Below are positions 29,801-50,500 of a stretch of DNA of 64,000 nt, in pieces. The notes under the pieces were generated by a model. It was given only the letters and a program-made list of their open reading frames with translations. It did no database searches and had not been told where the DNA came from. Both the position numbers and the translations under genes were made by a program. The DNA is from Myxococcota bacterium (GTDB lineage Bacteria; Myxococcota_A; UBA796; CAJQPC01): NCBI GenBank assembly GCA_036012755.1, contig DASCPX010000071.1:1-64000 (forward strand), in the 5' to 3' direction. The number at the start of each line of letters is the position of its first letter. Position 1 is the stretch's first letter.

Positions 29801-30162
29801 AGAGCGGCCAGTGGGCCGAAGCCCGGGGCCGGCAAGAGCTGGCCCTGACACGGATCCGCGCCCTCGGTCGGACAGGACTTCGAGGGGTCGCAGAGGCCAT
29901 CGCCTTGCCCATCGCCGCCCACTTCGGGGACTGGCGGGCCTTCCACGAGCACCTGGCCTTCGCGCTCGAGGTCGCCGAGGGGGAGGGTGCCGCGCACATC
30001 GATGGCGCACGAGCCGCCGAGCTGGCCGCCGAGCTCGCCACCGACGCCGGAGAGGTCGGCCCGGCGAGACAGGCCTGGGGCCTCGCGATCGCACACTGGA
30101 AGATCCTGGGTCGACAACAGAAGGCCGACGAAGCCAGGGGGCGCATGCTCAGCCTCGGTTAA
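26836..30162 (+). CDS. Ser/Thr protein kinase - P-loop NTPase (AAA_16/STAND-like) - TPR protein
   Basis: Kinase motifs IGRGGMGEVW, AVK, HRDVKPEN, DFG, GTPQYMAPE and DLYGLG; Walker A GEVGVGKT; C-terminal TPR-like helices. Start trimmed to ATG 26836. Confidence 0.93.
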   Translation: MSGIPVGPFDLETRIGRGGMGEVWLANHVDGSPGDPAVAVKVLTDRGARDPEYLRAFKNEVRLAAGLDHPHILLVHDYGEISPEAEKRSRGVLKAGSPWLAMELADGGPVGAGGQLSWRELRWALLCVLDALAHAHARGVVHRDVKPENVLLSAGGIKVSDFGLAQAVDRLGDVQLANHHAGTPQYMAPEQIEGRWRDWGPWTDLYGLGCLAWTLVSGAPPFSAHGLRGAIEAHLGAEPPPLEPRIGVPEGFEGWLRRLLQKDPFRRFRRAADATWALMSLPEPVEIDETSFDVTAPLPTLDTLEITWEGEDRGGPAAHEIDASIEPEPIAPFPSSWRRPHGQEPPPRMAGVGLGLFGLRDIPLVGRHELRDRLWDSLAEVERSRRGRLVVLRGEVGVGKTRVARWLCERGHALGAIAVVWATHAEPSRADDGLAPMLARHLRVQDLDPDAALARVTGMLRRLGEEDPDEATALSELIAGGIKMTSPSQRYVHIERYLAQLARFRPVVVRLENIQWSVDALGLAAHLLWSTRELPCLVLATVRDEVLAERPVEASMLARLLEQERATMVDVPLLGGKDTRALVRQILGLRGELAGQIEERCAGNAMFAVQLVGDLVQRGVLVPTPAGFRLRGGEDTELPDDVHRLWTERTKRFLEARPDTDGHMLEIAAVMGLEVDTRQWRQVSKRAGLQVSLRLVEALIAHRLARCGEEGPAFRWSFEHNLLHESLAKRARDGGRYESWNAAAADVLTETDSPDAQARLGRHLVRAGRPEEALAPLLAGARERCDCGDSREAALLLDEREEVMRSMRLGGGDRRWGDGWAIRARTSLSEVDLYAADAWGHRLLDAALEHGWEDLEIHALCLRATVLRHRGDRALSTESIEQALALARSRELADMEAACQRERAWLACEYGELDLARQHVLEALLHHDACGEHAGRAHCLAQLGAIERQSERYEEALGHVDAARQIFQEQGAGRDVASSDLHLALIHIESGQWAEARGRQELALTRIRALGRTGLRGVAEAIALPIAAHFGDWRAFHEHLAFALEVAEGEGAAHIDGARAAELAAELATDAGEVGPARQAWGLAIAHWKILGRQQKADEARGRMLSLG

Positions 30163-30172
30163 GGGCCCCGTC

Positions 30173-33225: not shown

Positions 33226-35227
33226 CGAAGACGAGGATGTTGTCGTCCGCGACCTCGCCGTCGTTGTAGTCGCCCCAGGTCTTGTTGTACTCGGAGGTGT
33301 CGAAGCCGCGGTCCCCAGCGGCACCGGCCCAGGCGTTCATGACGCAGCAGGTCGACCAGCTGGACTGGCCGCCGATGCGGGCGTTCTCCGCCGTGGTGTA
33401 GCTGGTGGAGCTCATCCAGCCCTCGTTCGGGTCGCTGCAGTTGAGACCCACGGGGTCCATCGTGGCCTGGGTCAAGCGGTCCTCTGACCAGGAGGTGCAG
33501 TTCGAGGCGCAGTAGGACGCCGAGGGCGTGGTCGAGAAGACGTTGGAGAGCGTGTCGTTGACGTCGAGACCCTCGCAGAGGAAGTAGGCGCCGTCGTTCT
33601 TGTAGTAGACGTAGACATCGGTCACCTCGATGGTCGTCCAGCTCTCGTACTTGGTGGTGACGGCGATGTCGGTCGAGTAGCTCGGGAAGGTCGTCTCGTT
33701 TCGCAGGGTTGTGCTCTCCCAGGTCGCGTCCTGGGCGAGCAGCCAGGGGTCGTTCACGTCGTCGATGTTCGCGACCAGGGTCCAGCCCCCGCCCTCGCTG
33801 CTCATGTCGCAGAAGACCTCGAAGGCCGTGCCGGTGGCGTCCGGGTCGATCCAGTAGTTGCCGTCACTGGCCCCGGAGCGGCTGTCGAGGACGTCATCGC
33901 ATGACAGGGCCGAGCAGTCCTCGTCGCCCAGCACCTCCTCGTCGTTGTCGACCGTGCCGTCGCAGTCGTTGTCCGAACCGTCGCAGACCTCGGTCGCGCC
34001 GGTGTAGGCGTCGGCGTCCGTGTCGTCGCAGTCGTCGGAGTTCTCGACGTAGCCGCTGGGCTGGTCGCAGGCCTCGGTGCTCGTGCCGGAGTCGCCGTAG
34101 CCGTCCCCGTCGCTGTCGGCGTACCAGGTGCTGCTGGACGCGGAGCCCTCGTCGACGTCACCGTCGCAGTCGTCGTCGATGTCGTTGCAGACCTCCTCAC
34201 CGTCCGGGCTGACGTCGGCGTCGGTGTCGTCGCAGTCGTCGCTGTCGTCGACGTAGCCGCTGGGCTGCTCGCAGCTCTCCGTCGTGTACTCGGCGCTGCC
34301 GTAGCCATCGCCGTCGTAGTCGATGTACCAGGTGACGCCTGGGTTCTTGGAGGCGTCGGTGTCGTCGCAGTCGGTGTCGTCCTCGACGTAGCCGCTGGGC
34401 TGCTCGCAGCTGTCCACGCTGCTTGTGGCGTCGCCGTAGCTGTCGCTGTCGCTGTCGCGATACCAGGTGGTCGCGTCCACGGCGCCTGTGTCCGCGTCCC
34501 CGTCACAGTCGTTGTCGACCCCGTCGCAGATCTCGGTGGCGTTCGGCGAGATGGAGGCGTCGCCGTCGTCGCAGTCGGTGTCGTCGTCGGCGTAGCCGGT
34601 GGGCGTGTCGCAGGCCTCGGTCGTGAGATCCGCGCTGCCAGACCCGTCTCCGTCGGCGTCGACGTAGAAGGTCGTCTGGACGCCCTCGTCGACCGTGCCG
34701 TCGCAGTTGTCGTCGATCTCGTTGCACTCTTCGGAGGCCCCCGGGTAGACGCCGCCGTCGGTGTCGTCGCAGTCCGTGCTGTCGGCGACCGTGCCCTCCT
34801 CCCCGTCGCAGCTCTGGGACTCGGCGTCCGGATCGCCGTAGCCGTCACCGTCGGCGTCGACATACCAAAGGTCCCCCACGGCATCGTCGATCTCGCCGCT
34901 GCAGTCGTCGTCGAGGCCGTTGCAGGTCTCGGTCGCGCCCGGGTTCACCTCCGCGTCGAGGTCGTTGCAGTCGTCCTCTTCGAGGTAGCCGTCGCCGTCG
35001 AGGTCGTCGTCCGGTGTGGACTCGTCGCAGTCGTCGTCCTGCCCGTTGTAGGGGACCTCTGTGTTGCCGGGCTTCACGGTGTTGTTGAAGTCGTCGCAGT
35101 CCTCGTCCTCTGGTGAGCCGTCGCTGTCGTTGTCGACGATCTCGACGGGCTCGCTGTCGTCGATGAAGCCGCTGTCGACCGGGGTGTCCTTGTTTCTGCA
35201 GGCGATGCCGAGGAGGAGGGTGAGCAT
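33218..35227 (-). CDS. Lipoprotein with MopE-related/putative metal-binding Asp-Cys repeats and a C-terminal fibrinogen-like domain
   Basis: Lipobox GIAC; repeats WYxDxDGDGYG..DCDD..PGAxExCxxxDxDCDG; C-terminal YWIDPD..FEVFCDM..GGGWTLV. Confidence 0.88.
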   Translation of the reverse strand: MLTLLLGIACRNKDTPVDSGFIDDSEPVEIVDNDSDGSPEDEDCDDFNNTVKPGNTEVPYNGQDDDCDESTPDDDLDGDGYLEEDDCNDLDAEVNPGATETCNGLDDDCSGEIDDAVGDLWYVDADGDGYGDPDAESQSCDGEEGTVADSTDCDDTDGGVYPGASEECNEIDDNCDGTVDEGVQTTFYVDADGDGSGSADLTTEACDTPTGYADDDTDCDDGDASISPNATEICDGVDNDCDGDADTGAVDATTWYRDSDSDSYGDATSSVDSCEQPSGYVEDDTDCDDTDASKNPGVTWYIDYDGDGYGSAEYTTESCEQPSGYVDDSDDCDDTDADVSPDGEEVCNDIDDDCDGDVDEGSASSSTWYADSDGDGYGDSGTSTEACDQPSGYVENSDDCDDTDADAYTGATEVCDGSDNDCDGTVDNDEEVLGDEDCSALSCDDVLDSRSGASDGNYWIDPDATGTAFEVFCDMSSEGGGWTLVANIDDVNDPWLLAQDATWESTTLRNETTFPSYSTDIAVTTKYESWTTIEVTDVYVYYKNDGAYFLCEGLDVNDTLSNVFSTTPSASYCASNCTSWSEDRLTQATMDPVGLNCSDPNEGWMSSTSYTTAENARIGGQSSWSTCCVMNAWAGAAGDRGFDTSEYNKTWGDYNDGEVADDNILVFVR

Positions 35228-35384
35228 GGGTCTACTCTACGGCACGGGCCTTGCACGGAGGCGGTCCAGTTCTCCCCAACCCGTCACCGAAGCGCACCAG
35301 CTCGCGCGGTTAGGCTCTCTCGCACCCAAGAGTGCGAAGGGCGCTACGCGCTCTCTGCCACCACCGCTTCACGCCGGATGCCCC

Positions 35385-38300
35385 ATGAAGCTGTTCGTTC
35401 GCCTGCCCGCTGAAGTGGCCTCTCTCGCCGAGAGCGTGCTGTCGACCGGGGCCATCCCCCTCATCGACCTCACCTCCAGCTGGACCGAGGAGGTCCATCC
35501 CGGCGCCTGGGTTCGCGTGCGTCCGGACCAGAAGGCCCCCGGAACTGGACCGGTCGTGCTCTGCAGCGCGGGAAGGAAGCCCCGCGGACGTCAGACCTGG
35601 CTCGAGGTGCGCGAGGCAAGACCGTGCCCGAAGAACTTCGAGGGCCTCTTCGTCGTCGGGCGCGAGGCCGGCGGCTTCTGCGGGAGCGAGGACGGCCTCT
35701 CCCTGCTCGATCAGTGCACCGGGAGGCTGGTCCTGGATGCCTCCGTCGGCCCCGACACCGCCGCGTCCGCCGCCGCCCTGGGAGCCGAAGGCGTGGTGCT
35801 CGCAGAGCAGCTCTGGGGGCTCAACGAGCTGGGGCTGGGGCCCCACTTGCGGCGCCTCGTGGAGCGCGCAACCGACACCTCGACCCATGTCGTCAACGGC
35901 TTTCGGGTCGCCGCGTCCCCGATCTCTCCGGCGATCCGACGCCTCGTCGCCGGGCTGGACGCCTACGAAGCGAGCGAGGGCTGGTTTGCCGCTGACGATC
36001 CGGTCGGCCTCGCCGTGCCCGCCGGTCAGGGCATCGCGCTGGCCCGCACCCTCGCCGAGCGCCACGGGGACCTCTGCGGCGTGCTGGACGCCTACGCGCG
36101 GGCTTGCGTCGAGTGGGAACAGCGCGTGGGCTCCGTCGTCGCCTGGCAGGACAGCTCGGCTCCTCGCGGGCGCACGTCCATCGCGCTGAGAGCCAGCAAC
36201 GGGCGCAGCTTCGTGGCCGACCCAAGCGGCGCCGTGGGCTCCGCGGTGCTCTGGCAGATCGCCGCCTGGGAGGGCCTCCCCATCACCGGCACGCCGCTGA
36301 TGGCGGCGGCAGCCGTCGGCGCACCGGTGCTCGCCCTACAAGGAGCGCTCGCGGATGTCCGCACCGTCTACACGCCGACGATCACCCCCGCGGACCCGGA
36401 GCCAGCCCCGGCGACGACCCCCGCTGTCGACGAGCCGGTGGCCATCGTCGGGCTCGGCTGCGTGCTGCCGCAGGCCCACGACGTCGCCTCCTTCTGGCGG
36501 AACGTCACCGGCGGCGTGAACTGCATCCGAGAGGTCCCCGAGGACCGCTGGGACCCGGCGCTGTTCTTCGACGCGGATCGCTCCGTCCCGGACAAGACCT
36601 ACGCGAAGGTCGGCGCCTTCGTCACGGACTTCCGGTTCGACAGCAAGAAGTACCGGATCCCGCCGAAGGTGGCGGCCTCGATCGACCCCGTCCAGAAGAT
36701 GGCGCTCGAGGCAGTCGGCCAGGCCCTCGAGGACGCCGGCGTCACGGGCGACTCCGCCATCGACCGATCCCGCGTCGCCGTCATCCTCGGCAACTCGATG
36801 GGCGGCGGCGAGTTCCGCGACAACTCCACGCTGCGGGTCTTCACCCCAGCCATGCAGGCGGCGCTCGCCGAGGTCCCGGAGTTCGCGGCCCTCCCCGACG
36901 AGATCCGGGAGGCAGTGCTCGATGGCTGGGTGACTCGCTTCAAGCAGGGCTTCCCGAGCATCACAGAGGACTCGATGCCCGGCGAGCTCTCGAACGTCAT
37001 CGCCGGACGCATCGCCAACGCCTTCGATCTCGGCGGTCCGAACTTCACCGTCGACGCGGCCTGCGCGTCGTCCATGGCCGCCATCCAGGCAGCCGTGAAG
37101 GGTCTCCAGGACGGTGACTTCGACCTCGTCGTCACCGGCGGCTCCGACCGCACGATGGACCCCCCGACTTTCACAAAGTTCTCGAAGATCGGGGCCTTGT
37201 CCCCTGATCATTCGAGTCCTTTCGATGCCTCCGCAGATGGCTTCGTCATGGGCGAGGGCTGTGGCATCCTCGTCCTCAAGCGCCTCTCTGACGCCGAGGG
37301 TGATGGCGACCGGGTCTACGCGGTGTTCCAGGGCTTCGGCGCGAGCTCTGATGGAAAGGGCAAGGGCATCACCGCCCCGAACATCGAGGGGCAGAAGCGC
37401 GCGCTGAGGCGTGCCTATGCCGACGCCGGGCTCGATCCCGTCGAGGTCGACCTCATGGAGTGCCACGGCACCTCGACGGTCGTCGGCGACAAGATCGAGG
37501 TCGAGGCCCTCACAGAGGTCGTCGGCGCGGGGCGCCGTGGGGCCCGCGGCCCCATCCGCATCGGCTCCGTGAAGAGCCAGATCGGCCACCTCAAGAGCGC
37601 CGCCGCGGCCGCCTCCATCATCAAGGTCGCGCTCGCCCTGCACCACAAGACGCTGCCTCCGAGCATCAACTTCCGGGAGCCGCGCGAGGACCTGCCCCTT
37701 CAGCAGATCCCCCTCCAGGTCCAGACCAGCGCCGAGCCCTGGCTCGCCGAGGGCTGGCGGCGCGCCGCCGGTGTGTCCGCCTTCGGCTTCGGCGGGACGA
37801 ACTTCCACGCCGTCCTGGTCGAGCACATCCCGGGCCTGGTGCCAGCGGCAGATGCGCCTGCCCGCAGCGCCAGGGTCGAGCTCGTGGAGCGGGATCTACC
37901 TGTCGGCATCTGGGCCGTCAGCGCCCAGAACCTCTCCGGCCTGTCACGGGCCCTCGACCGCATCGAGCGCGGCGAGAAGGCCCCGTGGAAGCCCTCGATG
38001 CCAGTGCGCCTGGCTGCGGCCGCCGACACCATCGAGGAGCGTCAGGACCAGATCGCCAGAGCCCGCAAGGCCATCTCCAAGGGCAGGGGTTTCGACCTGC
38101 TGCGCATGAGGTCCATCCACCTGGAGGACGGCCCCTGCGACGGCAAGCTCGCCCTCCTCTTCACAGGCCAGGGAAGCCAGTACCTCGGCATGGGCCTCGA
38201 TCTCGAGGACCGCTTCCCCATCGTCGGGGCGACCTTCGACGAGGCCGACAGCATCTGTGTCCGCGAGCTCGGCCACAGCATCCGCGACTTCATCCGCGGG

Positions 38301-41300
38301 CTCACCGGCGAAGAGACGACGGACTTCGAGCGCCTGCGCGCAACGGAGATCTCCCAGCCGGCGACCCTGGCCGTCGACATCGCCCTGTTGCGTCTGCTCA
38401 ACGGCTACGGGCTCTACCCAGATGTCGTCGCCGGCCACAGCCTCGGCGAGTACGGGGCGCTCGTGGCCGCGGGTGCGATGAGCTTCCGCGACTCGCTGCT
38501 GGCCGTGACGGCGCGCGGGCGCGAGATGGCGCACATCCAGCTCGAGGACCCGGGGGCCATGGCCTCGATCGCGGCCAAGAGCAGGCTGGTGGCCGAGGTG
38601 CTCGTCGAGATCCCCGGCTACGTCGTCGCTGCCAACAAGAACAGCCCCAAGCAGACCGTCATCGCTGGCGCCACCGACGCCGTCGAGGCCGCCTGCGAGT
38701 CCTTCCGCAGCCGCGGGATCACCGTCTTCCCGCTTCCGGTCAGCCACGCCTTCCACAGCGCGATCGTCGCGCCGGCATCCGAACCCCTCGGCGAGGTGCT
38801 CGCGAAGCTGGACATCCGGGCGCCCCAGCGACCGATCACCACCAACGTCGACTCCCGCTGGTACCCGGACGATCCCGAGAAGATCGTCCAGCTTCTCGCC
38901 CGCCAGGTGGCCAGCCCGGTCGAGTGGGTCAACCAGATCGAGCGCATGTACGCCGACGGCACCCGCATCTTCGTGGAGTGCGGTCCCAAGCGTGCCCTCA
39001 CCGGCTTCACCTCGGCCATCCTCAAGGACCGCCCTCACCGCTCGCTCTCGACGAACCACCCGAAGCTCGGCGGTGAGCGCAGCTTCCGGGACTCCCTCGC
39101 CGGGCTCATCGCGATGGGCTTCCCGATCGACGCCGACGCCACCGAGGAGATCCCGGAGCTCCTCAGCGACCCCCGGCCGCGCTTCGCCACCAGCACGGCG
39201 CTGTCCGCCGTCACACCCGACGACGAGCTCCAGGCCACCCCCTACATCGTCGAGAACGTGCTCGAGGTCATCGGCGACCGGGTCGGAGTCGCTGGAGACG
39301 AGCTCGACATCGACATGGAGTTCGAGGCCGATCTCGGCATCGACACCGTCCGGCAGGCCGAGCTCGTCGCGGAGCTGCGCAGCCGCTTCCACCTTGAGCG
39401 CGAGGCCGGCTTCCTGTTGTCCGACCACCCCTCGATCCGCGCGCTCATCGACTACTTCGCCGCCCGCCTCGGCCAGTACGAGCCCCACTGGGATCGCTCG
39501 GCTCCAGCGGTGGCGACACAGCCTCGCCGGCGAGCGGAGCCCACCCCCACCCCCAGCGAGCCCTCCGTGGGTCCCGACGCCGTCCGGAACTTCCTCGAGA
39601 GCGTCGCCACGGCCGGCCTCGACGGTCTGGACGCCGGACACTTCGCCCAGGCACTGCTCCCAGCCATCCAGAGTCTCCTGACCGCCAGCTGGGCGGCCTT
39701 CGACGCCGCCCGTGTCGAGCCCGATCCGGAACCCGCCGGGGCCACCCTGGCCACGCAGCCGTCGGCCTCGGCGCGCATCGTCTGCACCGGAGCGGCCATC
39801 GGCCTCCCGGGCGGAGAGAGGGTCTTCGACGAGGACAACATCCAGTCCATCCTCCGCGGCGACCAGCGCATCGAGCGCATCGACGCGGGCTACCGCGAGC
39901 GCTTCCTCACAAAGAACCTCGTCCGCCTCGTGAAGGACGCCGCCGGTCAGGGCTCCTTCCTGCCCGTGACCGACGACGACCAGGTCATCCAGCTCGCCGG
40001 ACGCGCCGGCCACTTCGACCTCGCCGAGTACGGCGTGTCGGAGAGCTGGATCCTCGCGCTGGATCGCACGACGCAGCTGGCCTTTGCTGCCGGCCTGGAC
40101 ACTCTCCGCGACGCCGGGATCCCGCTGGTCCGCACCTACCACGAGACCGGCTCCGGCAAGCGCGTCGCGACCGGCTGGGCCCTGCCCGAGCCCCTCCGCG
40201 ATGGCACGGGGATCATCTTCGCCAGCGCCTTCCCGGGCCTCGACAAGCTGGTGGAGAAGATCCTCAGCGGCGGCGTCGACCACGACGGCCACTACGACCG
40301 TCGCTTCCTCTTCCAGGTCCTGTCGATGGGCCACTCCCAGTTCGCCCAGTTCATAGGGGCGCGCGGCCCGAACACCCAGGTGAACTCTGCCTGCGCGAGC
40401 ACGACCCTCGCGGTCGCCCTGGCCCAGGACTGGATCCGCCTCGGCCGCTGCGAGCGCGTGCTCGTCCTGGGCGCAGACGATGTCACGACGGACACCATGC
40501 TCGAGTGGATGGCCAGCGGCTTCATGGCCGCGGGGGCCGCGACGACCGAGGCCAACGTCGCAGACGCCGCGTTGCCCTTCGACCGCCGACGCCACGGGAT
40601 GATCCTCGGAATGGGCGCGGTGGGGCTGATGCTGGAGCGTCGCGAGGATGCGCTCGCCCGGGGCGTGATCCCCATCGCCGAGCTCCTCGGCAGTCGCATC
40701 GCGAACTCCGCCTTCCACGGCTCCCGCCTGGACGCGGAGCACATCGCCTGCGAGGTCGATCTCCTGGTCGCGGAGGCCTGCCAGAAGGAGGGCGCCAAGG
40801 CCGAAGACATGGCCAAGCGCACCATGTTCATGTCCCACGAGACCTACACGCCGGCCCGAGGAGGCAGCGCCGGCGCGGAGATCGCAGCCTTGCGGCGGGC
40901 CTTCGGGGATGCCGCGAACCAGGTCGTGGTCTCCAACACGAAGGGCTTCACGGGCCACGCCATGGGCGCCTCGATCGAGGACGCCATCGCCGTCAAGGCG
41001 CTTCAGTACCGCACGGTGCCGCCCATCCCGAACCTGAAGGAGCCCGATCCGGAGCTCGGCGACCTCCACCTGTCCGAGGGCGGGCACCACGAGGTCGACT
41101 ACGCCTTGCGCCTCGCCGCCGGTTTCGGCTCCCAGCTGGCTGTCAGCCTCTGGAAGAAGATCGCCAAGGGCGACCAGCGGACCTCTGACCGCGACACCCG
41201 GGAGGCCTGGCTCAGCGAGGTCACCGGCTACGACACCGTCGAGGTCGTGCTCGAGCAGCACACGCTCCGGGCGGTCGGGAGCGCCCCGGCGGCAGCCACC

Positions 41301-44300
41301 CCGGCGACTGCCGCCCCGGCCAGAGAGCCAGCATCGACCGACTCGATGCTGCAGCACCTCGTGGCGGTGGTGGCAGAGAAGACGGGCTACGACCCGGAGG
41401 AGATCGAGCCCGACTACGAGCTCGAGGCCGACCTCGGCATCGACACGGTCAAGCAGGCCGAGATCTTCAGCGAGGTCCGTGACCACTACGGGGTCGAGCG
41501 CGACGAGACCTTCGTCCTAGCCGAGTACCCGACCATCCAGGCGCTGGCGACCTGGCTCGCTTCGAAGGCACCTGGGCAGCCGACGCCCGAGGTGCTCTCC
41601 GAGTCCACCCTGACCCCTGAGCGCACCGTCAGCGGTGACGAGGTCCTCCAGCACCTCCTCGGCGTGATCTCCGAGAAGACCGGCTACGACCTCGAGGACC
41701 TCGATCCGGAGTACGAGCTCGAGGCCGATCTCGGCATCGACACGGTCAAGCAGGCCGAGATCTTCAGCGAGGTCCGCGCAACCTACGGTGTCGAGCGCGA
41801 CGACGACTTCGTCCTCGCCGAGTACCCGACGATCGCAGCGCTCGCCGGCTGGATGTCGAGCAAAGCAGACATCGATCCCGACTCCCCGACCCTGGATGCG
41901 CCTGCGATGCCGGACATCACGCCGGTCACCGCCAACAACGAGGTCCTCGACTACCTCCTGGGAGTGATCGGAGACAAGACGGGCTACGACCGCGACGACC
42001 TCGAGATCGACTACGAGCTCGAGGCCGACCTCGGCATCGACACGGTCAAGCAGGCCGAGATCTTCGGCGACGTTCGCGACCACTTCGGCGTGGAGCGCGA
42101 CGACAGCTTCGTCCTCGCCGAGTTCCCGACCATCGGCAAGCTGGCCGACTGGCTGGCCTCGCGCATCGGCGCCGCCCCTGCGGTCGTCCACCACGAGATC
42201 GAGGGTGACGACTACAGCGAGCCCGTCGAAGACGCGGTCAGCGAGCTGCCGACGAGCTTCTGGGTCAGGCGCCCGGTCCGCGTCGGGCGGCCCAGCATGA
42301 TCGAGGGCAACGTCCGCGGTCGTGCCATCAAGATCCTCGGAGACGGCCCCGTCCAGGAAGCTCTCGTAGAGGAGATCGCACGCCAGGGCGGCATGCTCGC
42401 GATGGGTGACCTGGCGCCGGACGCCGTCATCGACGTGGCGAGCGACGTGCTCGAGGCCTTCGCCGAGGCCAGGAAGCTGGTCGACGTGCCGGTGCGTGAC
42501 TGGCTGTGCCTCACGATGCTCGGCGAGCACGAAGGCATGACCCCTGACCAGGCCTTCTTCGACGGCAGCCGCTGCGGCTTCACGAAGGCCCTCGGCCGTG
42601 AGTGGAAGCAGTGCCACGCGCGGGTCGTCGACGCATCCCCCGACGTCGATCCCGACAGCATCGCCCGCATCCTCTGCGGGGAGCTCGCCACCCCCGACGG
42701 CGCGGTGGAGATCTTCCACGCCGCCAGCGGCACGCGCGAGGTCATGGAGCTCGCCGTAGAGGCCCACCCGCCGACCGGCCGATGCCCGGCCTCGAACCAG
42801 GTGGTCATCGTCACCGGCGGGGGCCGAGGCATCACCGCGTCGGTCGCCACGGAGCTCGCGCGGCGGGCCGGGAGCACCCTGGTCCTCGTGGGCCGCTCGC
42901 CGATGGGCGAGAGCCCCCTCGATGTGCGAAAGGAGAAGAAGCGGATCAAGAAGGGGCTGAAGGCGGCCGACCAGAAGCCGAGCCCCGCGAACGTCGAGCG
43001 ACTCCTCTGGCCCCTACGCAAGGCAGAGGAGATCCGGACCACCGTCGAGGAGCTGCGCGCCCTCGGCAGCACGGTCGAGTACAGGACCTGTGACATGGCG
43101 GACGCGCCCGCGGTCAAGGCCCTCGTGGCCGACGTGACCGCCCGCTTCGGCCGGGTGGACGGCTGCATCCACGGCGCTGGCGTAGAGGAGAGCCGTTTGA
43201 TCCAGGACAAGGACGCGGCGGCCTTCCACCGCGTCTTCGACGGCAAGGCCCTGGGTGGCCTCGCCTTGGCAGAGGCCCTCCCGGAAAAGGCCTGGCTCCT
43301 CTCCATGGGCTCTGTCGCTGGTCGCTTCGGGAACGAGGGACAGGTCGACTACAGCGCCGCGAACGAGGCGCTGGCGCAGGTCTGCCTCGCCCGGCCGCGC
43401 TCCCTGCACGTGGACTGGACGGCCTGGGCGGATGTCGGAATGGCCGTGCGTGGCGGAATGCAGCACCTGTTGGAGTCCCGCGGCCTCGAGCTGATGCCCG
43501 CGCTCGCCGGCGCCTCTCTGGCCGTCGACCTCATCGCGAGCCATGTCACGGGCGAGATCGTCGTGGCCGGCAAGCTCGGCGACTTCGTGCCCTCGCCCAA
43601 CCACCCCAAGCTCGACAGCATGGAGCTCGACGGCGACACCATCGTGGCGCGCTACACGCTGGAGCCCGAGCGCGACCCCTGGATCGACGATCACGCCATA
43701 GACGGAAAGCCCGTGCTTCCAGGCGTCATGGGGATCGAGCTGATGGCGGCTGCTGCCTCCCTGGCTCGCCCCGGCATGGTCTACACGGGGGTCGAGGACG
43801 TGAAGTTCGAGCGACCGGTGAAGGTCTATCGAAACTCGCCGGTGCACCTCGAGATGCGCGCTCAGCCCCAGGATGACGGGCGGGTGTGGTGCTCGCTGAC
43901 CAGCGAACGCAGGACCAGGGCAAAGAAGCTCATCCGCACGGAGCACTTCTCGTGCTCCATCCTGCTGGACCAGCGTCCGCAGATCGACCAGCTGCCGCCG
44001 GCCTTCTGGCCAGAAGACTCGATCTCGCGAGGCGACATCTACCGCCGCTTCTTCCACGGACCCGCCTTCCAGGTCCTCCGCGGCGCCGATGGGGTGACCC
44101 GGGACGGCCTCCAGTGCAGCGGACGCGTAGACCACGCCTACATCGCGGAGGGCATGCTGACCTCGCCGCTGGCCCTCGAGGCGGCATTCCAGGCGGCCGG
44201 ACTGCACGCCATGGTCTCCGACGGCGCGATGGCGCTCCCCCAATCGATCGAGGCCCTGTGGGTCTCGCGCAGGGTGCGGGATGGCGAGGATCTCGTCCTC

Positions 44301-45119
44301 ACCGTGCTCCACCGCGCCGACGGCGCCTACGACGTGGACGTGGACGGTGAAGACGACCGCCTGATGAGTCTCCGTGGTTTCCGCATGATCGAGAAGGGTC
44401 CGCTGCCCGACGGCCGCAGGTTCAGCGAGCCCGACGAGGGCTGGGCGGACACCGCCTTCGGCACCATGACCGTCGTGCAGACAGAGGGCGTCCAGGCCTG
44501 CCTCCGCAGCGCGGAGGTCGGAGAGGACACCACTGGGTGGCTCAGCGAAGAGGAGCTCGCGGAGCTCCGGTCCCGCGGCACCGAGAAACGCGTCGGCGAC
44601 CGCATCGCTGGCCGCATCGCCGCCAAGCGCGCCGTGGGAGCCCTCACCGGCGCCGACCCGCTGACGATGGAGATCTCGAACCTCGCCAGCGGCGAGCCGG
44701 TCGTACGGATCGACGGCGAGCCAGGTCCGCAGATCTCGATCTCCCACAGCGGTGGGCGCGCCGTGGCGCTGGCCAGCCGCGCCGAACGGGTGGGGATCGA
44801 CCTGGAACAGATCGAGGAGCGCCACCCTGCCTTCCTCGACGAGTGGTTCAGCGAGGACGAGCGGACACTGTTCGCTGGTGACGCCGCGCTCATCACCACC
44901 GCGTGGGCCGCGAAGGAGGCCGTGCTGAAGGCACTCGGACGAGGGATGGCCCTCGATCCGCGACAGATCGAGATCCGCGCCGTCGTGGCCGGTCGAGTGG
45001 AAGTCATCCTGCGCGACGACGTCGCCGCTACGCACGCGGCCCTCGGCGGGGGGGAGCTCACGCTCTCTGCCCGGATCGAGGGCGGCACGGTTTTGGTAGA
45101 GGCGCGTATCGCGGCATGA
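35385..45119 (+). CDS. Type I PKS/FAS (PfaA-related): degenerate ER - KS - AT - ACP - KS - ACP x3 - KR - DH - PPTase, 3244 aa
   Basis: KS1: DAACASS, ECHGT, KSQIGH. AT: GQGSQ, GHSLG, HAFH. ACPs: EADLGIDT. KS2: NSACAST, SHETYT, KGFTGH. KR: TGGGRGI, DYSAAN. DH: DHAIDGKPVLPG. PPTase: SISHS, GIDLE, WAAKEA. Start trimmed to ATG 35385. Confidence 0.93.
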   Translation: MKLFVRLPAEVASLAESVLSTGAIPLIDLTSSWTEEVHPGAWVRVRPDQKAPGTGPVVLCSAGRKPRGRQTWLEVREARPCPKNFEGLFVVGREAGGFCGSEDGLSLLDQCTGRLVLDASVGPDTAASAAALGAEGVVLAEQLWGLNELGLGPHLRRLVERATDTSTHVVNGFRVAASPISPAIRRLVAGLDAYEASEGWFAADDPVGLAVPAGQGIALARTLAERHGDLCGVLDAYARACVEWEQRVGSVVAWQDSSAPRGRTSIALRASNGRSFVADPSGAVGSAVLWQIAAWEGLPITGTPLMAAAAVGAPVLALQGALADVRTVYTPTITPADPEPAPATTPAVDEPVAIVGLGCVLPQAHDVASFWRNVTGGVNCIREVPEDRWDPALFFDADRSVPDKTYAKVGAFVTDFRFDSKKYRIPPKVAASIDPVQKMALEAVGQALEDAGVTGDSAIDRSRVAVILGNSMGGGEFRDNSTLRVFTPAMQAALAEVPEFAALPDEIREAVLDGWVTRFKQGFPSITEDSMPGELSNVIAGRIANAFDLGGPNFTVDAACASSMAAIQAAVKGLQDGDFDLVVTGGSDRTMDPPTFTKFSKIGALSPDHSSPFDASADGFVMGEGCGILVLKRLSDAEGDGDRVYAVFQGFGASSDGKGKGITAPNIEGQKRALRRAYADAGLDPVEVDLMECHGTSTVVGDKIEVEALTEVVGAGRRGARGPIRIGSVKSQIGHLKSAAAAASIIKVALALHHKTLPPSINFREPREDLPLQQIPLQVQTSAEPWLAEGWRRAAGVSAFGFGGTNFHAVLVEHIPGLVPAADAPARSARVELVERDLPVGIWAVSAQNLSGLSRALDRIERGEKAPWKPSMPVRLAAAADTIEERQDQIARARKAISKGRGFDLLRMRSIHLEDGPCDGKLALLFTGQGSQYLGMGLDLEDRFPIVGATFDEADSICVRELGHSIRDFIRGLTGEETTDFERLRATEISQPATLAVDIALLRLLNGYGLYPDVVAGHSLGEYGALVAAGAMSFRDSLLAVTARGREMAHIQLEDPGAMASIAAKSRLVAEVLVEIPGYVVAANKNSPKQTVIAGATDAVEAACESFRSRGITVFPLPVSHAFHSAIVAPASEPLGEVLAKLDIRAPQRPITTNVDSRWYPDDPEKIVQLLARQVASPVEWVNQIERMYADGTRIFVECGPKRALTGFTSAILKDRPHRSLSTNHPKLGGERSFRDSLAGLIAMGFPIDADATEEIPELLSDPRPRFATSTALSAVTPDDELQATPYIVENVLEVIGDRVGVAGDELDIDMEFEADLGIDTVRQAELVAELRSRFHLEREAGFLLSDHPSIRALIDYFAARLGQYEPHWDRSAPAVATQPRRRAEPTPTPSEPSVGPDAVRNFLESVATAGLDGLDAGHFAQALLPAIQSLLTASWAAFDAARVEPDPEPAGATLATQPSASARIVCTGAAIGLPGGERVFDEDNIQSILRGDQRIERIDAGYRERFLTKNLVRLVKDAAGQGSFLPVTDDDQVIQLAGRAGHFDLAEYGVSESWILALDRTTQLAFAAGLDTLRDAGIPLVRTYHETGSGKRVATGWALPEPLRDGTGIIFASAFPGLDKLVEKILSGGVDHDGHYDRRFLFQVLSMGHSQFAQFIGARGPNTQVNSACASTTLAVALAQDWIRLGRCERVLVLGADDVTTDTMLEWMASGFMAAGAATTEANVADAALPFDRRRHGMILGMGAVGLMLERREDALARGVIPIAELLGSRIANSAFHGSRLDAEHIACEVDLLVAEACQKEGAKAEDMAKRTMFMSHETYTPARGGSAGAEIAALRRAFGDAANQVVVSNTKGFTGHAMGASIEDAIAVKALQYRTVPPIPNLKEPDPELGDLHLSEGGHHEVDYALRLAAGFGSQLAVSLWKKIAKGDQRTSDRDTREAWLSEVTGYDTVEVVLEQHTLRAVGSAPAAATPATAAPAREPASTDSMLQHLVAVVAEKTGYDPEEIEPDYELEADLGIDTVKQAEIFSEVRDHYGVERDETFVLAEYPTIQALATWLASKAPGQPTPEVLSESTLTPERTVSGDEVLQHLLGVISEKTGYDLEDLDPEYELEADLGIDTVKQAEIFSEVRATYGVERDDDFVLAEYPTIAALAGWMSSKADIDPDSPTLDAPAMPDITPVTANNEVLDYLLGVIGDKTGYDRDDLEIDYELEADLGIDTVKQAEIFGDVRDHFGVERDDSFVLAEFPTIGKLADWLASRIGAAPAVVHHEIEGDDYSEPVEDAVSELPTSFWVRRPVRVGRPSMIEGNVRGRAIKILGDGPVQEALVEEIARQGGMLAMGDLAPDAVIDVASDVLEAFAEARKLVDVPVRDWLCLTMLGEHEGMTPDQAFFDGSRCGFTKALGREWKQCHARVVDASPDVDPDSIARILCGELATPDGAVEIFHAASGTREVMELAVEAHPPTGRCPASNQVVIVTGGGRGITASVATELARRAGSTLVLVGRSPMGESPLDVRKEKKRIKKGLKAADQKPSPANVERLLWPLRKAEEIRTTVEELRALGSTVEYRTCDMADAPAVKALVADVTARFGRVDGCIHGAGVEESRLIQDKDAAAFHRVFDGKALGGLALAEALPEKAWLLSMGSVAGRFGNEGQVDYSAANEALAQVCLARPRSLHVDWTAWADVGMAVRGGMQHLLESRGLELMPALAGASLAVDLIASHVTGEIVVAGKLGDFVPSPNHPKLDSMELDGDTIVARYTLEPERDPWIDDHAIDGKPVLPGVMGIELMAAAASLARPGMVYTGVEDVKFERPVKVYRNSPVHLEMRAQPQDDGRVWCSLTSERRTRAKKLIRTEHFSCSILLDQRPQIDQLPPAFWPEDSISRGDIYRRFFHGPAFQVLRGADGVTRDGLQCSGRVDHAYIAEGMLTSPLALEAAFQAAGLHAMVSDGAMALPQSIEALWVSRRVRDGEDLVLTVLHRADGAYDVDVDGEDDRLMSLRGFRMIEKGPLPDGRRFSEPDEGWADTAFGTMTVVQTEGVQACLRSAEVGEDTTGWLSEEELAELRSRGTEKRVGDRIAGRIAAKRAVGALTGADPLTMEISNLASGEPVVRIDGEPGPQISISHSGGRAVALASRAERVGIDLEQIEERHPAFLDEWFSEDERTLFAGDAALITTAWAAKEAVLKALGRGMALDPRQIEIRAVVAGRVEVILRDDVAATHAALGGGELTLSARIEGGTVLVEARIAA
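41345..42170 (+). repeat. Three tandem ACP-coding repeats (spacing 297 and 300 nt)
   Basis: Near-identical tacgagctcgaggccga(c/t)ctcggcatcgacacggtcaagcaggccgagatcttc at about 41415, 41712 and 42012. Confidence 0.9.
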
Positions 45120-45157: not shown

Positions 45158-45730
45158 GTGGAGGCCCGCATCTTCGACAAGAACGTCTCGCTCATCCGGG
45201 TCCACACGCCACGGGAGCTCTTGCCCTACCGGGCCAGCTTCGTGGGCTGCTACCAGACGGTCTGGAGCGAGCCGCCCTACGACGAAGAGTTCTACCCCTA
45301 CGAAGCCGAGGCCGTGCTGCGGCGTCAGCTCCAGTCGCCAGGCCACATCACGCTGCTCGCGGTCCGTGGCCTCTCCACCGTGGTCGGCTTCGGCTTCGCC
45401 GCGCCGCTCAAGAGCCGCCCGGAGGTGGCGCGGCACATGGGCGGTCTCCTCCTCGCCGAGCACACGATGTACCTCGCCGAGCTGGGCGTCCTGCGCGACT
45501 ACCGGGGTCTGGGGCTGGGCGGGGCGATGGTCGAAGAGCGCCTCGCGGCGATCGACCGACAGCTCTTCGCCCACGCCCTGTTGCGGACCTCGGCGACCAA
45601 GAACGCTGGCTACGAGATGTACCTCTCCCGAGGCTTCGACGACATCGGGGTGTACATGGAGGTCCCGTCTCGGCGCATCGGAGGCACCGTCCGCACCGAC
45701 CGTCGGTTGTTCTTGAGCAAAGTCCTCTGA
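45158..45730 (+). CDS. GNAT-family N-acyltransferase
   Basis: YLAELGVLRDYRGLGLG acyl-CoA binding motif and C-terminal MYLSRGF. Confidence 0.85.
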   Translation: MEARIFDKNVSLIRVHTPRELLPYRASFVGCYQTVWSEPPYDEEFYPYEAEAVLRRQLQSPGHITLLAVRGLSTVVGFGFAAPLKSRPEVARHMGGLLLAEHTMYLAELGVLRDYRGLGLGGAMVEERLAAIDRQLFAHALLRTSATKNAGYEMYLSRGFDDIGVYMEVPSRRIGGTVRTDRRLFLSKVL

Positions 45731-47577: not shown

Positions 47578-50500
47578 TCAATCCTCGATCCACTCGCCGC
47601 GCTGCACCAGGGTGAGCTTGTGCAGCTCGTCGCGAGCCCGGGCGTGGCTGATCCTGCGCGCGGCGAGGTCATCCAGGATGCGATCGGCGCGCCAGCGGCG
47701 CACGACGCCGAGGAAGGGATCCACGAGTTCGTCGACCAGCGCGCGGAACAGGCCCTTCTCGCCGGCGATGGCCACCCGCGACATCACCTTGCCGCGGACC
47801 CGCAGCTCGTGCTGGATCAACCGGGACACGTCGGCGGCCAGCGCCGGCAGGCGCTCCTGCGGGAGGGACTCCAAGGCGCGGGCGACCTCCTGGCAGAGCG
47901 GGATGCACCACTCCTTCCACTCGCGGAGCGCCGCCATGCCGCGACGGGCGACCTCTGGATCCCGATCCCCCAGCTGCTCGACCCACTCCATCGGGCGCCG
48001 GGCGTAGACCCAGCGGTAGACCAGGTCGAGGCCCGTGCCCTTGATGTTCTGGCAAGACATGACCCGCACCAGCGTTCCCACCGGGCAGCTCATGGCGATG
48101 CGCTCGTTGATGGCGTCACCGGTCGCTCCGGCGTCCGGGACGAAGACCACGTGGCGCAGGAAGATGGTCCGGTAGACCCGGCCGACGTGTGCGGAGAGCT
48201 CCCGACCGTAGCTCCCATCGCGGGCGGCCTCGATGCAGGCCTTGCGAAGGGCGCGGAACATCAGCGCCTCGACCGCGAGCTCGACCCATTGATCGCCAGC
48301 ACCCGCCAGGCCGAAGTCCCGATCCCGGGCGTCGTGGAAGAGCGCCTCCGGGTGGGCGTTGGGGTGAAAGATCGTGCCCGCTTCGTCTCCCAGGCCCCGC
48401 AGCCGCGAGGCCAGCTCACCCAGCAGCAGCCGGGCTCCGTCCGACTCCAGCGGTGTCGCAGGCACATCCTCCACCAGGGTGTGGAGCTCGTGGCAGATCT
48501 CCTCTGTGCCCGAGCCCTCCATGTCGAGGCGCCGCATCGTCTCCAGCAGGAGCGAGGGCACATCGACGATGCGGAGGTCGTGCTCCAGCGCCGCGAGGCG
48601 GCCCTCCACCGCCGCCGTCCCGCCGCCAAAGACGTCGATGCGCGCGATGTGGTGGTCGAGAGCTTCTGCGATGTAGCCGCGCAGCCCCTCCAGGTTGGTG
48701 CCGATGCAGACATAGCGATGGGCCGCCGCGTCGCTGACCATGATCTCGGCGAAGACCTGCGAGCGAGAGACGCGGTCGTAGCGGTTGTTGAGCACCGCCA
48801 CGAGGAAGGTGCCGGCGTCGTCGATGGCGTCGTGTTGGTCGAAGCCGCAGCGACGCCAGTTGTTCAGGAAGCCGGTCCGCTCGTTCGCGGACGAGCCGTT
48901 GCTGAACTCGAGGATGCGCCCGCGGTGGCGGAGGCGCGGGAAGGTCGCGAGCACACCGAGGTCCGGCACGACGTGGTCGGCCATCAGGACGAGGGCCTCC
49001 TCGACGTCCAGGTCCAGCTGCTCGCAGAGCTCCGCCACCAGCGCGAGGTTCGCCGGGTGCTCCTGGTAGGGGAAGCGCGCCTGCAGGTCCTCTGGCACGG
49101 CCGCGATGCCGTCCTCGTCGACCTCGATGAGCGTGGTCCCGAGCTTCCGGGCCCGCTCGCGCAGGACAGAGGTCATCTGGGTCTCGGTGGTGATCGCGAC
49201 GGCCCCTGCAGGCACGAAGCGCGCGATGGTCTCGGCGACGTCGTCGCCCGTGGGCCCCATCACGTCCTCGTGGTCCGGGTAGGTGTTCGTGATCGTGCTG
49301 ATGTCGTCGCGGGTCCAGTTGAGCTGCAGCTGCTCGACATACTCGGGGCGCAGGGCCATGCACTCCCAGACGAAGACCTCGGCCCCCAGACGCGCCGACT
49401 GCTCCAGCATCTCCGCGTGCTCCCAGATGGTGGCGCGGTCGAAGGGGCGGAAGAGGTAGACCTCGACGGCACCTTGGAGCGGAGGCGTGCGCATCAGCAT
49501 CGCCTCGCACCCGGTGGTCTTGCAGACGACGTCGTAGCCAAGGCCCTCGAAGAGCGCCGCCTTCAAGCGAGCGACGCCGCTCTTTCCGCGCGTGCCCCAG
49601 CCCCCGATGACGAGCGGGATCGACTCGCGTGCCTTCCTGGTCCGCAGCTTGCCGAGGCCGAGCCTGAGGAAGAAGACGAAGCCGACGATGCTCGCGACGA
49701 GGGCGAGATCGACTGGCTCTACCGGGTGCAGGGCGAGGAAGCGGTTGAGCTCGTCGAGGACGGCGACCGCGACGATCGGCGCGATGCCAGAGTCCGTCGG
49801 CGCGTTCCAGTCGTCGACCCCGGGGAAGAGCTTGGGGACCCGGGGGTCGACTCCACCGTGGTGTGGCTCGAACCGGATCTGGAAGCCCAGGTCGCGCAGG
49901 GCCTCTGCGTAGCCGCCCAGCCCGGCGGAGTCGTTGGCGCGCAGGGACTCGCTGCGCAGGGCGGAGAGCTCACCCACGCTCCACGACAGCCTCAACCCGG
50001 CCCACAGGCGGCCGAGCCCGCCAGGAGGTCGGATGAAGGTCCAGCCCTGCTCGGAGAGCACGCGCAGCTCGCCACGCCAGAGACCGTCGACGAGCACGTC
50101 CGGCAGGGGAAGCCAGGGACACCAGCTCCGCCACGCCTCCTCGAACACGGGGCGTCCCGGGACCTCTGTCGGCGACACGTCCGCCATCTGCGGCGGCGGC
50201 ACCAGCACCTGGCCGCGAATGCTCCGTCCGCTCAGGTGGTCCCCGCCCTGGCGCTTGCCGGGGTCTCCGATGCGGGCCTCGTGCAGGACTCGCCAGAGCC
50301 TCAGGACGCGCCGTTGGCCGCGGTGCACCCTCACCCGCCGGCGACCGAGCTCCTCGAGGCCGAAGCCCTCGTCCCGCTGGGTCCGCTTCAGCAGCAGGCG
50401 TGCGAGGCTGTCGATCGAGGTGCCCTCTGGCAGGGTGACGGTCTCGCTCCCTCCCACGGGCATCGCCGCGAGCTGGTCCGCGAGGCCCTCTGCCGGGACC

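What the first reader, a model, noticed from the sequence alone, without database searches (positions are those of the whole stretch)
39250..45119. PKS/FAS whose four ACPs all carry Thr instead of Ser at the phosphopantetheine site, with a PPTase fused in cis
Seen: all four carrier domains read EADLGIDT-V-(R/K)-QAE, with Thr codons at 39345 (ACC) and at 41445, 41742 and 42042 (ACG). There is no Ser-type ACP in the gene. The divergent ACP1 uses a different Thr codon, which argues against sequencing error. The KS, AT, KR and DH catalytic motifs are intact, and the protein ends in a PPTase domain (SISHS, GIDLE, WAAKEA). Established: ACPs, including PfaA-type LGIDS domains, are primed on an essentially invariant Ser. 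Inference: the dedicated PPTase primes Thr, giving an orthogonal carrier/PPTase pair insulated from host AcpS/Sfp.
Basis: partly seen in the sequence, partly recalled or inferred. Interest (0 to 1): 0.88.

Follow-up and report, generated by a model that had tools for sequence, protein, structure and literature searches.

The report
Lipid synthases with threonine carrier sites
This giant fatty-acid/polyketide synthase, like thousands of uncharacterised relatives in many bacterial phyla, has threonine where every studied carrier protein has the serine that holds its phosphopantetheine arm, and it always travels with its own arm-attaching enzyme, which suggests an undescribed threonine-linked version of a textbook protein modification.

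Summary
The gene (35385..45119, +) encodes FabK-like ER–KS–AT–ACP–KS2–ACP×3–KR–DH–Sfp-type PPTase. All four ACPs read LGIDT, and the Thr aligns with the phosphopantetheinyl-Ser of solved ACPs.

This is a trait of a superfamily, not of this gene.
- 523 of 525 ACP domains in 120 homologs have Thr; the other 2 have Ser.
- 142 of 142 complete sites have Thr in metagenome loci picked by KS motifs.
- All four Thr codons are used.
- The 150 best library hits are 114 all-Thr and 28 all-Ser proteins, with only 2 mixed Ser/Thr.

The relatives without a fused PPTase match the uncharacterised "Type R" secondary lipid synthases (Shulse & Allen 2011). They carry a PPTase of the same family downstream in 22 of 22 loci with enough flank.

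In this genome the other 12 carrier domains have Ser, including a canonical LGIDS PfaA type, and there is one other PPTase.

Thr as the priming site is inferred, not shown. Strict Thr specificity is not supported. Four all-Ser relatives carry the same PPTase family, and no discriminating PPTase residue was found.

Ten paper searches and three look-ups of this scan's earlier notes found no prior description.

The parts
35385..45119 (+). Whole megasynthase gene (3244 aa from ATG 35385; the ORF is open from 35061)
   Evidence: P0002 is 100% identical, 3244 aa
35385..36410 (+). N-terminal FabK/NMO-type TIM-barrel domain, a putative enoyl reductase; no Pfam hit
   Evidence: AF2 model has pLDDT 92.9. 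Foldseek top hits are FabK 2z6j/5gvj/7l00 (TM 0.54-0.64); PfaD 4z9r ranks lower. The Atlas gives an NMO lead.
36432..37673 (+). KS1 (Cys codon at 37062; His codons at 37464 and 37587)
38157..39002 (+). Acyltransferase (GHSLGE, Ser codon at 38439)
39258..39455 (+). ACP1, LGIDT, Thr codon ACC at 39345
39741..41270 (+). KS2 (the 'CLF' of Shulse & Allen's Type R, but Cys 40392 and both His are intact)
41355..41558 (+). ACP2, LGIDT, Thr codon ACG at 41445
41652..41852 (+). ACP3, LGIDT, Thr codon ACG at 41742
41949..42155 (+). ACP4, LGIDT, Thr codon ACG at 42042
42804..43430 (+). Ketoreductase (Tyr codon at 43350)
43626..44360 (+). PKS-type dehydratase (HxxxGxxxxP, His codon at 43692)
44430..45116 (+). 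Sfp-type PPTase domain (ISISHS, GIDLE, WAAKEAVLKA)
45158..45730 (+). GNAT acyltransferase gene, a conserved downstream partner and possible chain-release/N-acylation enzyme (inference)
   Evidence: Pfam. It is 51% identical to the gene directly after the L003 synthase. It is present directly after the synthase in 25 of 30 loci L084-L113, the window's own included.

Best explanation
The gene encodes a self-contained, single-polypeptide iterative type I fatty-acid/polyketide synthase of the PfaA-like 'secondary lipid synthase' superfamily. Its domain order is FabK-like ER - KS - AT - ACP - KS2 - ACPx3 - KR - DH - Sfp-type PPTase, and a conserved GNAT gene follows it. Its four carrier domains, like those of nearly the whole superfamily, have Thr at the position that is the phosphopantetheinyl-Ser in every characterised carrier protein. 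Most likely the Thr hydroxyl is the real attachment site of 4'-phosphopantetheine. It would be primed from CoA by the C-terminal PPTase acting in cis or within the dimer. In 'Type R' relatives a PPTase of the same family encoded downstream would do this. The holo-Thr-ACPs would then carry malonyl and acyl thioesters through iterative KS/KR/DH/ER cycles to a long, mostly reduced acyl chain. The GNAT may pass that chain to an amine acceptor. Shown: sequence, domain content, conservation, linkage. Inferred: Thr priming, who primes it, the product, the GNAT role. Whether the PPTase family is Thr-specific or accepts both Ser and Thr is open, and the data lean to 'accepts both'. Insulation would then be one-way: ordinary PPTases may fail on Thr, as E. 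coli AcpS is reported to fail on AcpP S36T.
For: (1) Thr lies on the Ppant-Ser column of solved ACPs. It is flanked by the same DLG(I/V)D_(V/I)K context as Ser-type relatives (DLGIDSVKQAE in P0170). (2) Only hydroxyl residues occur at the site. It is T 523 / S 2 in 525 domains, and T 142 of 142 in loci chosen by KS1 motifs. All four Thr codons are used and no Ser codon in 152 sites. (3) Proteins are uniform. Among the 150 best of 1.84 billion representatives, 114 are all-T, 28 all-S, 2 mixed S/T and 6 have degenerate or truncated sites. Among 100 relatives of P0170, 88 are all-T, 12 all-S and 0 mixed. The diverged ACP1, separated from the tandem ACPs by KS2, agrees with them. (4) No other column of the 525 ACPs has Ser at 30% or more. 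(5) A PPTase of one family is always linked. It is fused in 74 of 120 homologs; most of the rest are the Type R form or truncated. It lies downstream in 22 of 22 Type R loci with enough flank, and the other 8 contigs end inside an intervening ACC gene. 10 of 12 stand-alone high-scoring PPTases in the phylum sample sit beside a Thr-ACP synthase, and the other 2 flanks were too short. (6) Thr-linked PPTases score 75-280 bits against the cis-PPTase HMM. 16 'second' PPTases of the same genomes score 30-59 bits. (7) The PPTase catalytic motifs and all KS/AT/KR/DH motifs are intact, so a thiol arm is needed. (8) In G000, 12 of 16 PP-binding domains have Ser, including a canonical LGIDSIKRVEIL PfaA type. 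The 4 Thr ones are all in this gene, and only one other PF01648 gene was found. (9) E. coli AcpP S36T 'cannot be post-translationally modified by 4'-PP' (PMC3340395, section 6 passages).
Against: There is no experimental or proteomic evidence for a Ppant-Thr. The one documented Ser-to-Thr carrier mutant is not primed, so Thr priming needs a capability that no PPTase has been shown to have. No residue in the PPTase domain distinguishes the 117 Thr-linked from the 4 Ser-linked members, though 4 is a small contrast set. All-Ser relatives carry the same PPTase family. The ML tree did not place the 16 'second' PPTases on one side: 4 stray rows, with long branches. The AU test (p = 0.44) merely fails to reject that arrangement. 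The HMM used for the score gap was built from the fused clade, which favours that clade. Tandem ACPs can be homogenised by recombination, which weakens the 'uniform per protein' argument for the tandem copies.
Confidence: 0.7

Rival explanations
1. Thr is primed, but not because of a dedicated or orthogonal PPTase. Sfp-type PPTases in general (including the genome's second one) can load it. Thr is kept for another reason. One candidate is a phosphodiester on a secondary alcohol that resists beta-elimination or AcpH-type hydrolases. Another is a methyl group that restrains the arm.
For: The same PPTase family accompanies all-Ser relatives, and no discriminating residue was found. Two proteins mix a Ser ACP1 with Thr ACPs. 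The PPTase has ordinary Sfp-type motifs.
Against: A PPTase is kept fused or adjacent in every locus with enough flank, which is unexpected if any housekeeping enzyme would do. AcpS is reported not to prime S36T, though that says nothing about Sfp-type enzymes.
Confidence: 0.2
2. The Thr-ACPs are never phosphopantetheinylated. They are structural or docking repeats, or they carry intermediates in another way such as a direct O-acyl-Thr ester. The PPTase domain would serve another carrier.
For: The documented S36T carrier is inert. No Ppant-Thr was found in print in the 10 searches.
Against: The gene has no Ser carrier at all, yet intact KS, AT, KR and DH. 3-6 tandem copies are conserved across phyla with only S/T allowed at the site. 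The Ser-type sister proteins share the same context and architecture. PPTase linkage is universal.
Confidence: 0.07
3. Ppant is attached to a different residue of these domains, and the Thr is only a neighbour.
For: None beyond the textbook expectation of Ser.
Against: No column of 525 aligned domains has Ser at 30% or more. The only other conserved hydroxyls are the Thr of KTGY and of PTL, which Ser-type PfaA ACPs also have.
Confidence: 0.02
4. Sequencing or assembly artefact, or a decaying pseudogene under relaxed selection.
For: The genome is a 250-contig assembly.
Against: The 10-kb frame is open. The protein recurs in public data. Thr is conserved in hundreds of independent assemblies with synonymous codon variation.
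Confidence: 0.01

Closest known systems
'Type R' secondary lipid synthase cluster (Shulse & Allen 2011, PMC3098273; sections 7 and 8 read): pfaA homolog KS-MAT-CLF-ACP(3-6)-KR plus a downstream PPTase, in Roseiflexus, Koribacter, Solibacter and Elusimicrobium; product unknown
   Same: The core order is the same: KS-AT-second KS-tandem ACPs-KR(-DH). The PPTase has the hShxH-type motif (ISISH here). An ACC gene lies between synthase and PPTase in many members (21 of 30 full loci), which the paper notes for Koribacter. 39 of the 120 homologs have exactly this fusion-less form, and all of them have Thr ACPs.
   Different: The window's clade adds an N-terminal FabK-like ER, an extra ACP between AT and KS2, a fused PPTase and a downstream GNAT. 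The 'CLF' keeps its Cys. The paper does not contain the word threonine. I did not check the named organisms' own sequences.
PfaA of PUFA synthases, with the PfaE PPTase
   Same: KS-AT-tandem ACP-KR-DH layout. The ACPs are clearly homologous (KTGYP...DLGID[S/T][I/V]K). TIGR02813 is the best NCBIfam hit.
   Different: The TIGR02813 score of 932 is below the 1010.1 cut-off. There are no adjacent PfaB/C/D genes and no FabA-type DH genes. The site is Thr instead of the LGIDS Ser. The same genome has a separate canonical LGIDSIKRVEIL gene.
Enediyne PKSE (SgcE/CalE8-type self-phosphopantetheinylating PKS); recalled, no call
   Same: An iterative KS-AT-ACP-KR-DH protein ending in a fused Sfp-type PPTase.
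   Different: As recalled, PKSE has one KS and one Ser ACP and works with a dedicated thioesterase. Here there are two KS, four Thr ACPs, an ER domain and a GNAT neighbour.
ArsA/ArsD type I FAS of Azotobacter phenolic-lipid synthesis ('Type P'; PMC3098273 section 7; also named in scan note e1-4503466)
   Same: A secondary-lipid type I FAS with a PPTase domain fused to a synthase subunit.
   Different: It is a two-protein system feeding type III PKSs. Its ACP site residue was not examined here.
E. coli AcpP S36T (PMC3340395 section 6; PMC13343975 section 6, passages read)
   Same: It has the same Ser-to-Thr change at the carrier site.
   Different: It is an engineered mutant used as a non-modifiable, non-functional control. 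Here Thr is the conserved natural state, accompanied by its own PPTase.

Membership tests
Carrier protein, PP-binding (PF00550) | Match to the family profile | tested here: met
   Four stretches, 120.1 bits against a 20.8 cut-off.
Carrier protein, PP-binding (PF00550) | Conserved Ser as the 4'-phosphopantetheine attachment site at the start of helix II | tested here: not met
   Thr is at that column in all four domains.
Carrier protein, PP-binding (PF00550) | Actually carries 4'-phosphopantetheine | not testable with these tools
   This needs mass spectrometry.
Sfp-type PPTase (PF01648) | Profile match and the catalytic motifs (H of xSHS, GxDxE, WxxKEAxxK) | tested here: met
   57.4 bits against a cut-off of 25. 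The alignment to Sfp 1qr0/4mrt covers all three motifs. No NCBIfam PPTase equivalog reaches its cut-off.
PfaA, PUFA synthase subunit A (TIGR02813) | Score above the curated cut-off | tested here: not met
   932 bits against 1010.1.
PfaA, PUFA synthase subunit A (TIGR02813) | Clustered with PfaB/PfaC (FabA-type DH) and PfaD | tested here: not met
   Pfam on 16 neighbouring ORFs shows none. An ER-like domain is fused instead.
Type R secondary lipid synthase (Shulse & Allen 2011) | KS-MAT-second KS/CLF-ACP(3-6)-KR in one protein | tested here: met
   The window's clade has extra domains.
Type R secondary lipid synthase (Shulse & Allen 2011) | Separate PPTase gene downstream | tested here: not met
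   The PPTase is fused here. The fused domains and the separate Type R genes match one HMM (75-117 bits for the separate genes).
Enediyne PKSE | Single KS-AT-ACP-KR-DH-PPTase with a Ser ACP, plus enediyne cassette genes | tested here: not met
   There are two KS and four Thr ACPs. No cassette-like neighbours were seen. The family features are recalled, not taken from a call.

The most novel reading that the evidence does not exclude
O-phosphopantetheinyl-threonine is a real and widespread post-translational modification. A whole superfamily of bacterial lipid megasynthases uses Thr-type carrier domains. That superfamily has thousands of members in Myxococcota, Bdellovibrionota, Alphaproteobacteria, Chloroflexota, Bacteroidota, Actinomycetota, Acidobacteriota and others. 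The Thr-type carriers are primed only by a co-inherited, Thr-capable PPTase lineage and are invisible to AcpS and ordinary Sfp-type enzymes. This gives a natural insulated carrier/PPTase pair alongside the cell's Ser-based systems.
Probability: 0.45. Interest if true: 0.9.

Novelty: new variant of a known kind. Interest (0 to 1): 0.8.

Why it matters
The 'invariant serine' of carrier proteins is a textbook rule. It is built into annotation, into domain-activity calls in genome mining, and into the use of Ser-to-Thr mutants as dead controls. If Thr is primed here, several things follow.
- The rule has a large natural exception.
- Tools that score ACPs without the Ser as inactive would misjudge thousands of clusters.
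- PPTase chemistry would extend to a secondary alcohol.
- A natural carrier/PPTase pair would be available that might be orthogonal to AcpS/Sfp for labelling and pathway engineering.

It also gives a handle on a very common but uncharacterised lipid synthase family: Type R and its ER-/PPTase-fused relatives. These occur in most sampled genomes of this order. Their product and role are unknown.

Tried and rejected
Literature: ten full-text searches found no description of a Thr carrier site or Ppant-Thr. They covered motif strings (LGIDT, GIDTVK and others), phrases for threonine phosphopantetheinylation, S36T, and Type R/Roseiflexus. Subscription journals are not in the library, so this is not proof of absence.

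Scan notes: three look-ups found nothing on this.

Specificity residue: I compared 117 Thr-linked with 4 Ser-linked PPTase domains. No column was conserved in the first set and different in the second.

PPTase phylogeny (91 rows, quick ML): the 16 'second' PPTases were not one clean side of a branch. The AU test gave p = 0.44, so it neither shows nor rejects a Thr-linked clade.

Neighbours: the two upstream aromatic amino-acid lyases, the MopE-like gene, the 268-aa ORF and the GDSL lipase have no counterpart in the flanks of relatives. Those flanks were short: 10 kb for L003, 2 kb for L004, and 1.5 kb for L085-L113. I do not count these genes as part of the system.

The first genome-contig scan with a single protein gave only 2 loci.

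GNAT: no specific family or solved relative was found.

I did not run complex prediction. An enzyme-carrier pair would pass by likeness to Sfp-PCP structures and could not tell Thr from Ser.

Rejected readings: sequencing error, pseudogene, alternative Ser site (see rivals).
Full report
WHAT IS THERE. A single frame is open from 35061 to 45119 on the + strand. The public protein identical to it (P0002, 3244 aa) and the aligned N-termini of homologs place the start at ATG 35385. Pfam finds two KS domains, one AT, four PP-binding stretches, KR, a PKS-type DH and a C-terminal PF01648 PPTase.

The first about 340 residues have no Pfam hit. A 13-sequence alignment gives an AlphaFold model with pLDDT 92.9. 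Its best Foldseek matches are FabK enoyl-ACP reductases (2z6j, 5gvj, 7l00; TM 0.54-0.64), followed by nitronate monooxygenases and, lower down, PfaD and a trans-AT ER. The ESM Atlas gave the same NMO lead.

The architecture is therefore ER(FabK-like)-KS-AT-ACP-KS2-ACPx3-KR-DH-PPTase. Catalytic residues of KS1, AT, KS2 (Cys and both His, so not a CLF in the usual sense), KR and DH are present. The PPTase aligns with Sfp across its three catalytic motifs.

THE OBSERVATION. All four carrier domains read EADLGIDTV(R/K)QAE. In alignments to solved carrier proteins (PigH, AcpM and others) the Thr falls on the phosphopantetheinyl-Ser. There is no Ser-type carrier in the gene.

IT IS A FAMILY TRAIT. 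A word-indexed search with the ACP1-KS2-ACP region returned 2914 proteins at E <= 0.001 among 3077 scored, of which the best 120 were listed. An HMM of the four window ACPs finds 525 ACP domains in those 120 proteins: 523 have Thr and 2 have Ser. Both Ser cases are in the ACP1 position, in P0078 and P0098.

That search could favour Thr through shared words, so I took two samples that do not depend on the ACP.

First, 79 metagenome loci were retrieved with patterns from KS1 (ED[TS]MPGEL, GA[DN]GFVMG). 46 of them contain ACPs, with 142 complete sites, all Thr; 2 further sites are cut by contig ends.

Second, an exhaustive phmmer of ACP2 against 1.84 billion representatives gave 5005 hits at E <= 1e-3 and 2430 at E <= 1e-10. 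Among the best 150 proteins:
- 114 are all-Thr.
- 28 are all-Ser, mostly the canonical PUFA types LGIDSIKRVEIL and LGIDSIKKAQLF.
- 2 mix Ser and Thr; in both, the Ser sits in a divergent last domain.
- 6 have a truncated or degenerate site.

At DNA level, 152 sites use ACC 83, ACG 56, ACT 9 and ACA 4, and never a Ser codon, although Ser is one base change away. No other column of the 525 domains has Ser at 30% or more.

Source names attached to all-Thr proteins include Myxococcota, Polyangiaceae, Bdellovibrionota, Alphaproteobacteria, Chloroploca, Kouleothrix, Lewinellaceae, Saprospiraceae, Kineosporiaceae, Thermoleophilaceae, Acidimicrobiales and Thermoanaerobaculia.

TWO ARCHITECTURES, ONE PPTASE FAMILY. 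Of the 120 homologs, 74 carry the fused PPTase and 39 have the shorter form KS-AT-KS2-ACP(4-6)-KR-DH without it. The remaining 7 are cut short.

The shorter form matches the 'Type R' secondary lipid synthase of Shulse & Allen (PMC3098273; sections 7 and 8 read). That type is KS-MAT-CLF-ACP(3-6)-KR followed by a PPTase gene, with product unknown. The paper never mentions threonine.

Among 30 metagenome loci that hold the whole synthase, 22 have enough downstream sequence. All 22 carry a PPTase matching the HMM of the fused domains; one of them is cut by the contig end. The other 8 contigs end inside a 1870-1930-aa single-chain acetyl-CoA carboxylase, which lies between synthase and PPTase in 21 of the 30.

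In a sample of 401 genomes of the window's phylum, the PPTase domain found a match in 158. Within the window's own order it found a match in 49 of 59 genomes, mostly inside frames of about 3000-3800 aa. More distant fused forms from other families of the phylum are also all ELEADLG(I/V)DTVKQAEIM.

I fetched the surroundings of 12 stand-alone, high-scoring PPTases from that sample. 10 lie beside a Thr-ACP synthase, and the other 2 flanks were too short to tell.

Against the cis-PPTase HMM, Thr-linked PPTases score 75-280 bits. 16 'second' PPTases of genomes that also have a Thr synthase score 30-59 bits. That HMM was built from the fused clade, so the gap is partly built in. A quick ML tree did not put the 16 on one clean side, and an AU test (p = 0.44) only fails to reject that arrangement.

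THE SAME GENOME KEEPS SER ELSEWHERE. G000 (96% complete) has 16 PP-binding matches. 12 have Ser, including an AcpP-like DSL protein and a canonical PfaA-type LGIDSIKRVEIL array. The 4 with Thr are all in this gene. Only two PF01648 matches were found: the fused domain and a 268-aa Sfp-type ORF on contig 91. No AcpS was seen, possibly because the assembly is incomplete.

WHAT THIS MEANS. The site accepts only hydroxyl residues, is uniform within a protein, sits in an otherwise ordinary PUFA-type ACP, and is the only carrier site of an otherwise intact synthase that always travels with a PPTase. The simplest reading is that Thr is the phosphopantetheine attachment site.

That is not trivial. [quoted passage not shown] PMC13343975 uses the same variant.

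- Four all-Ser relatives (P0155, P0170, P0270, P0271; DLGIDS(V/I)K(Q/V)AE) have the same architecture and a fused PPTase scoring 81-91 bits, inside the range of Thr-linked ones.
- No PPTase column conserved in the 117 Thr-linked domains differs in those 4.
- P0078 and P0098 combine a Ser ACP1 with Thr ACPs.

So the PPTase family is probably Thr-capable rather than Thr-only. Any insulation is more likely one-way: other PPTases cannot use Thr.

The closest relatives of the all-Ser P0170 group are all-Thr (88 all-Thr, 12 all-Ser, 0 mixed among 100). This looks like whole-protein switching. Recombination among tandem copies could contribute to that pattern.

PRODUCT AND PARTNERS (inference). With a FabK-like ER, one PKS-type DH, no FabA-type DH and no thioesterase, the likely product is a long, largely reduced acyl chain. 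A GNAT gene follows the synthase directly in 25 of 30 loci, the window's own included, and it is 51% identical between the window and L003. It has no specific family. It could release the chain by N-acylation. Other neighbours are not conserved in the short flanks available.

NOVELTY. The family (Type R and relatives) is known as an uncharacterised class. The Thr carrier site, and its linkage to one PPTase family, was not found in ten full-text searches or in this scan's notes. The library lacks most subscription journals, so prior mention cannot be excluded. I rate it a new variant of a known kind: the same chemistry and fold, a different acceptor residue, on a very large scale.

LIMITS. Nothing here shows the modification itself. 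Counts come from best-hit lists (120, 150 and 120 proteins) and from loci limited by contig ends. The contrast set of Ser-linked PPTases has only four members. Features of enediyne PKSE are recalled and were not tested.

Noticed in passing
window 45158-45730 (+): A GNAT acetyltransferase gene directly follows the synthase. The same arrangement is found in 25 of 30 related loci. It has no specific family and may be the chain-release enzyme.
   Followed up: partly
L026:18949-24573, L058:18937-24741 and 19 other Type R loci: A eukaryote-like single-chain acetyl-CoA carboxylase (BC-BCCP-central-CT, 1870-1930 aa) sits between the Thr-ACP synthase and its PPTase in 21 of 30 complete Type R loci.
   Followed up: partly
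proteins P0170, P0270, P0271, P0155: These are rare all-Ser members of the Thr superfamily with the same architecture and a fused PPTase. The closest relatives of the P0170 group are all-Thr, suggesting a whole-protein Thr-to-Ser switch. They are natural comparators for PPTase specificity.
   Followed up: partly
G000 contigs C133:17921-18406 and C154:157-360: The same genome also encodes a canonical PfaA-type tandem ACP array (LGIDSIKRVEIL). A Ser-type and a Thr-type PUFA-like synthase therefore coexist.
   Followed up: no
window 29987-31744 and 31741-33225 (+): Two tandem, overlapping aromatic amino-acid lyase (PF00221) genes lie upstream of the synthase. They are not found in the flanks of relatives.
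   Followed up: partly
window 33218-35227 (-): A 669-aa protein has six MopE-type metal-binding motifs plus fibrinogen-C/COLFI-like matches, divergent from the synthase.
   Followed up: no
window 47578-51540, 51537-55592, 55589-56548 (-): A run of very large minus-strand ORFs (1320, 1351 and 319 aa) has no family beyond one HEAT-repeat match.
   Followed up: no
window 20367-21881 (-): A patatin-like phospholipase is fused to EF-hand calcium-binding motifs.
   Followed up: no
protein P0272: An all-Thr member of this bacterial family is labelled 'hypothetical protein [Acer saccharum]' by its source. This is probably bacterial DNA in a plant assembly.
   Followed up: no
G000 whole genome: Only two PF01648 PPTase matches and no AcpS-sized one were found in a 96%-complete assembly. 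AcpS may lie in unassembled sequence.
   Followed up: no
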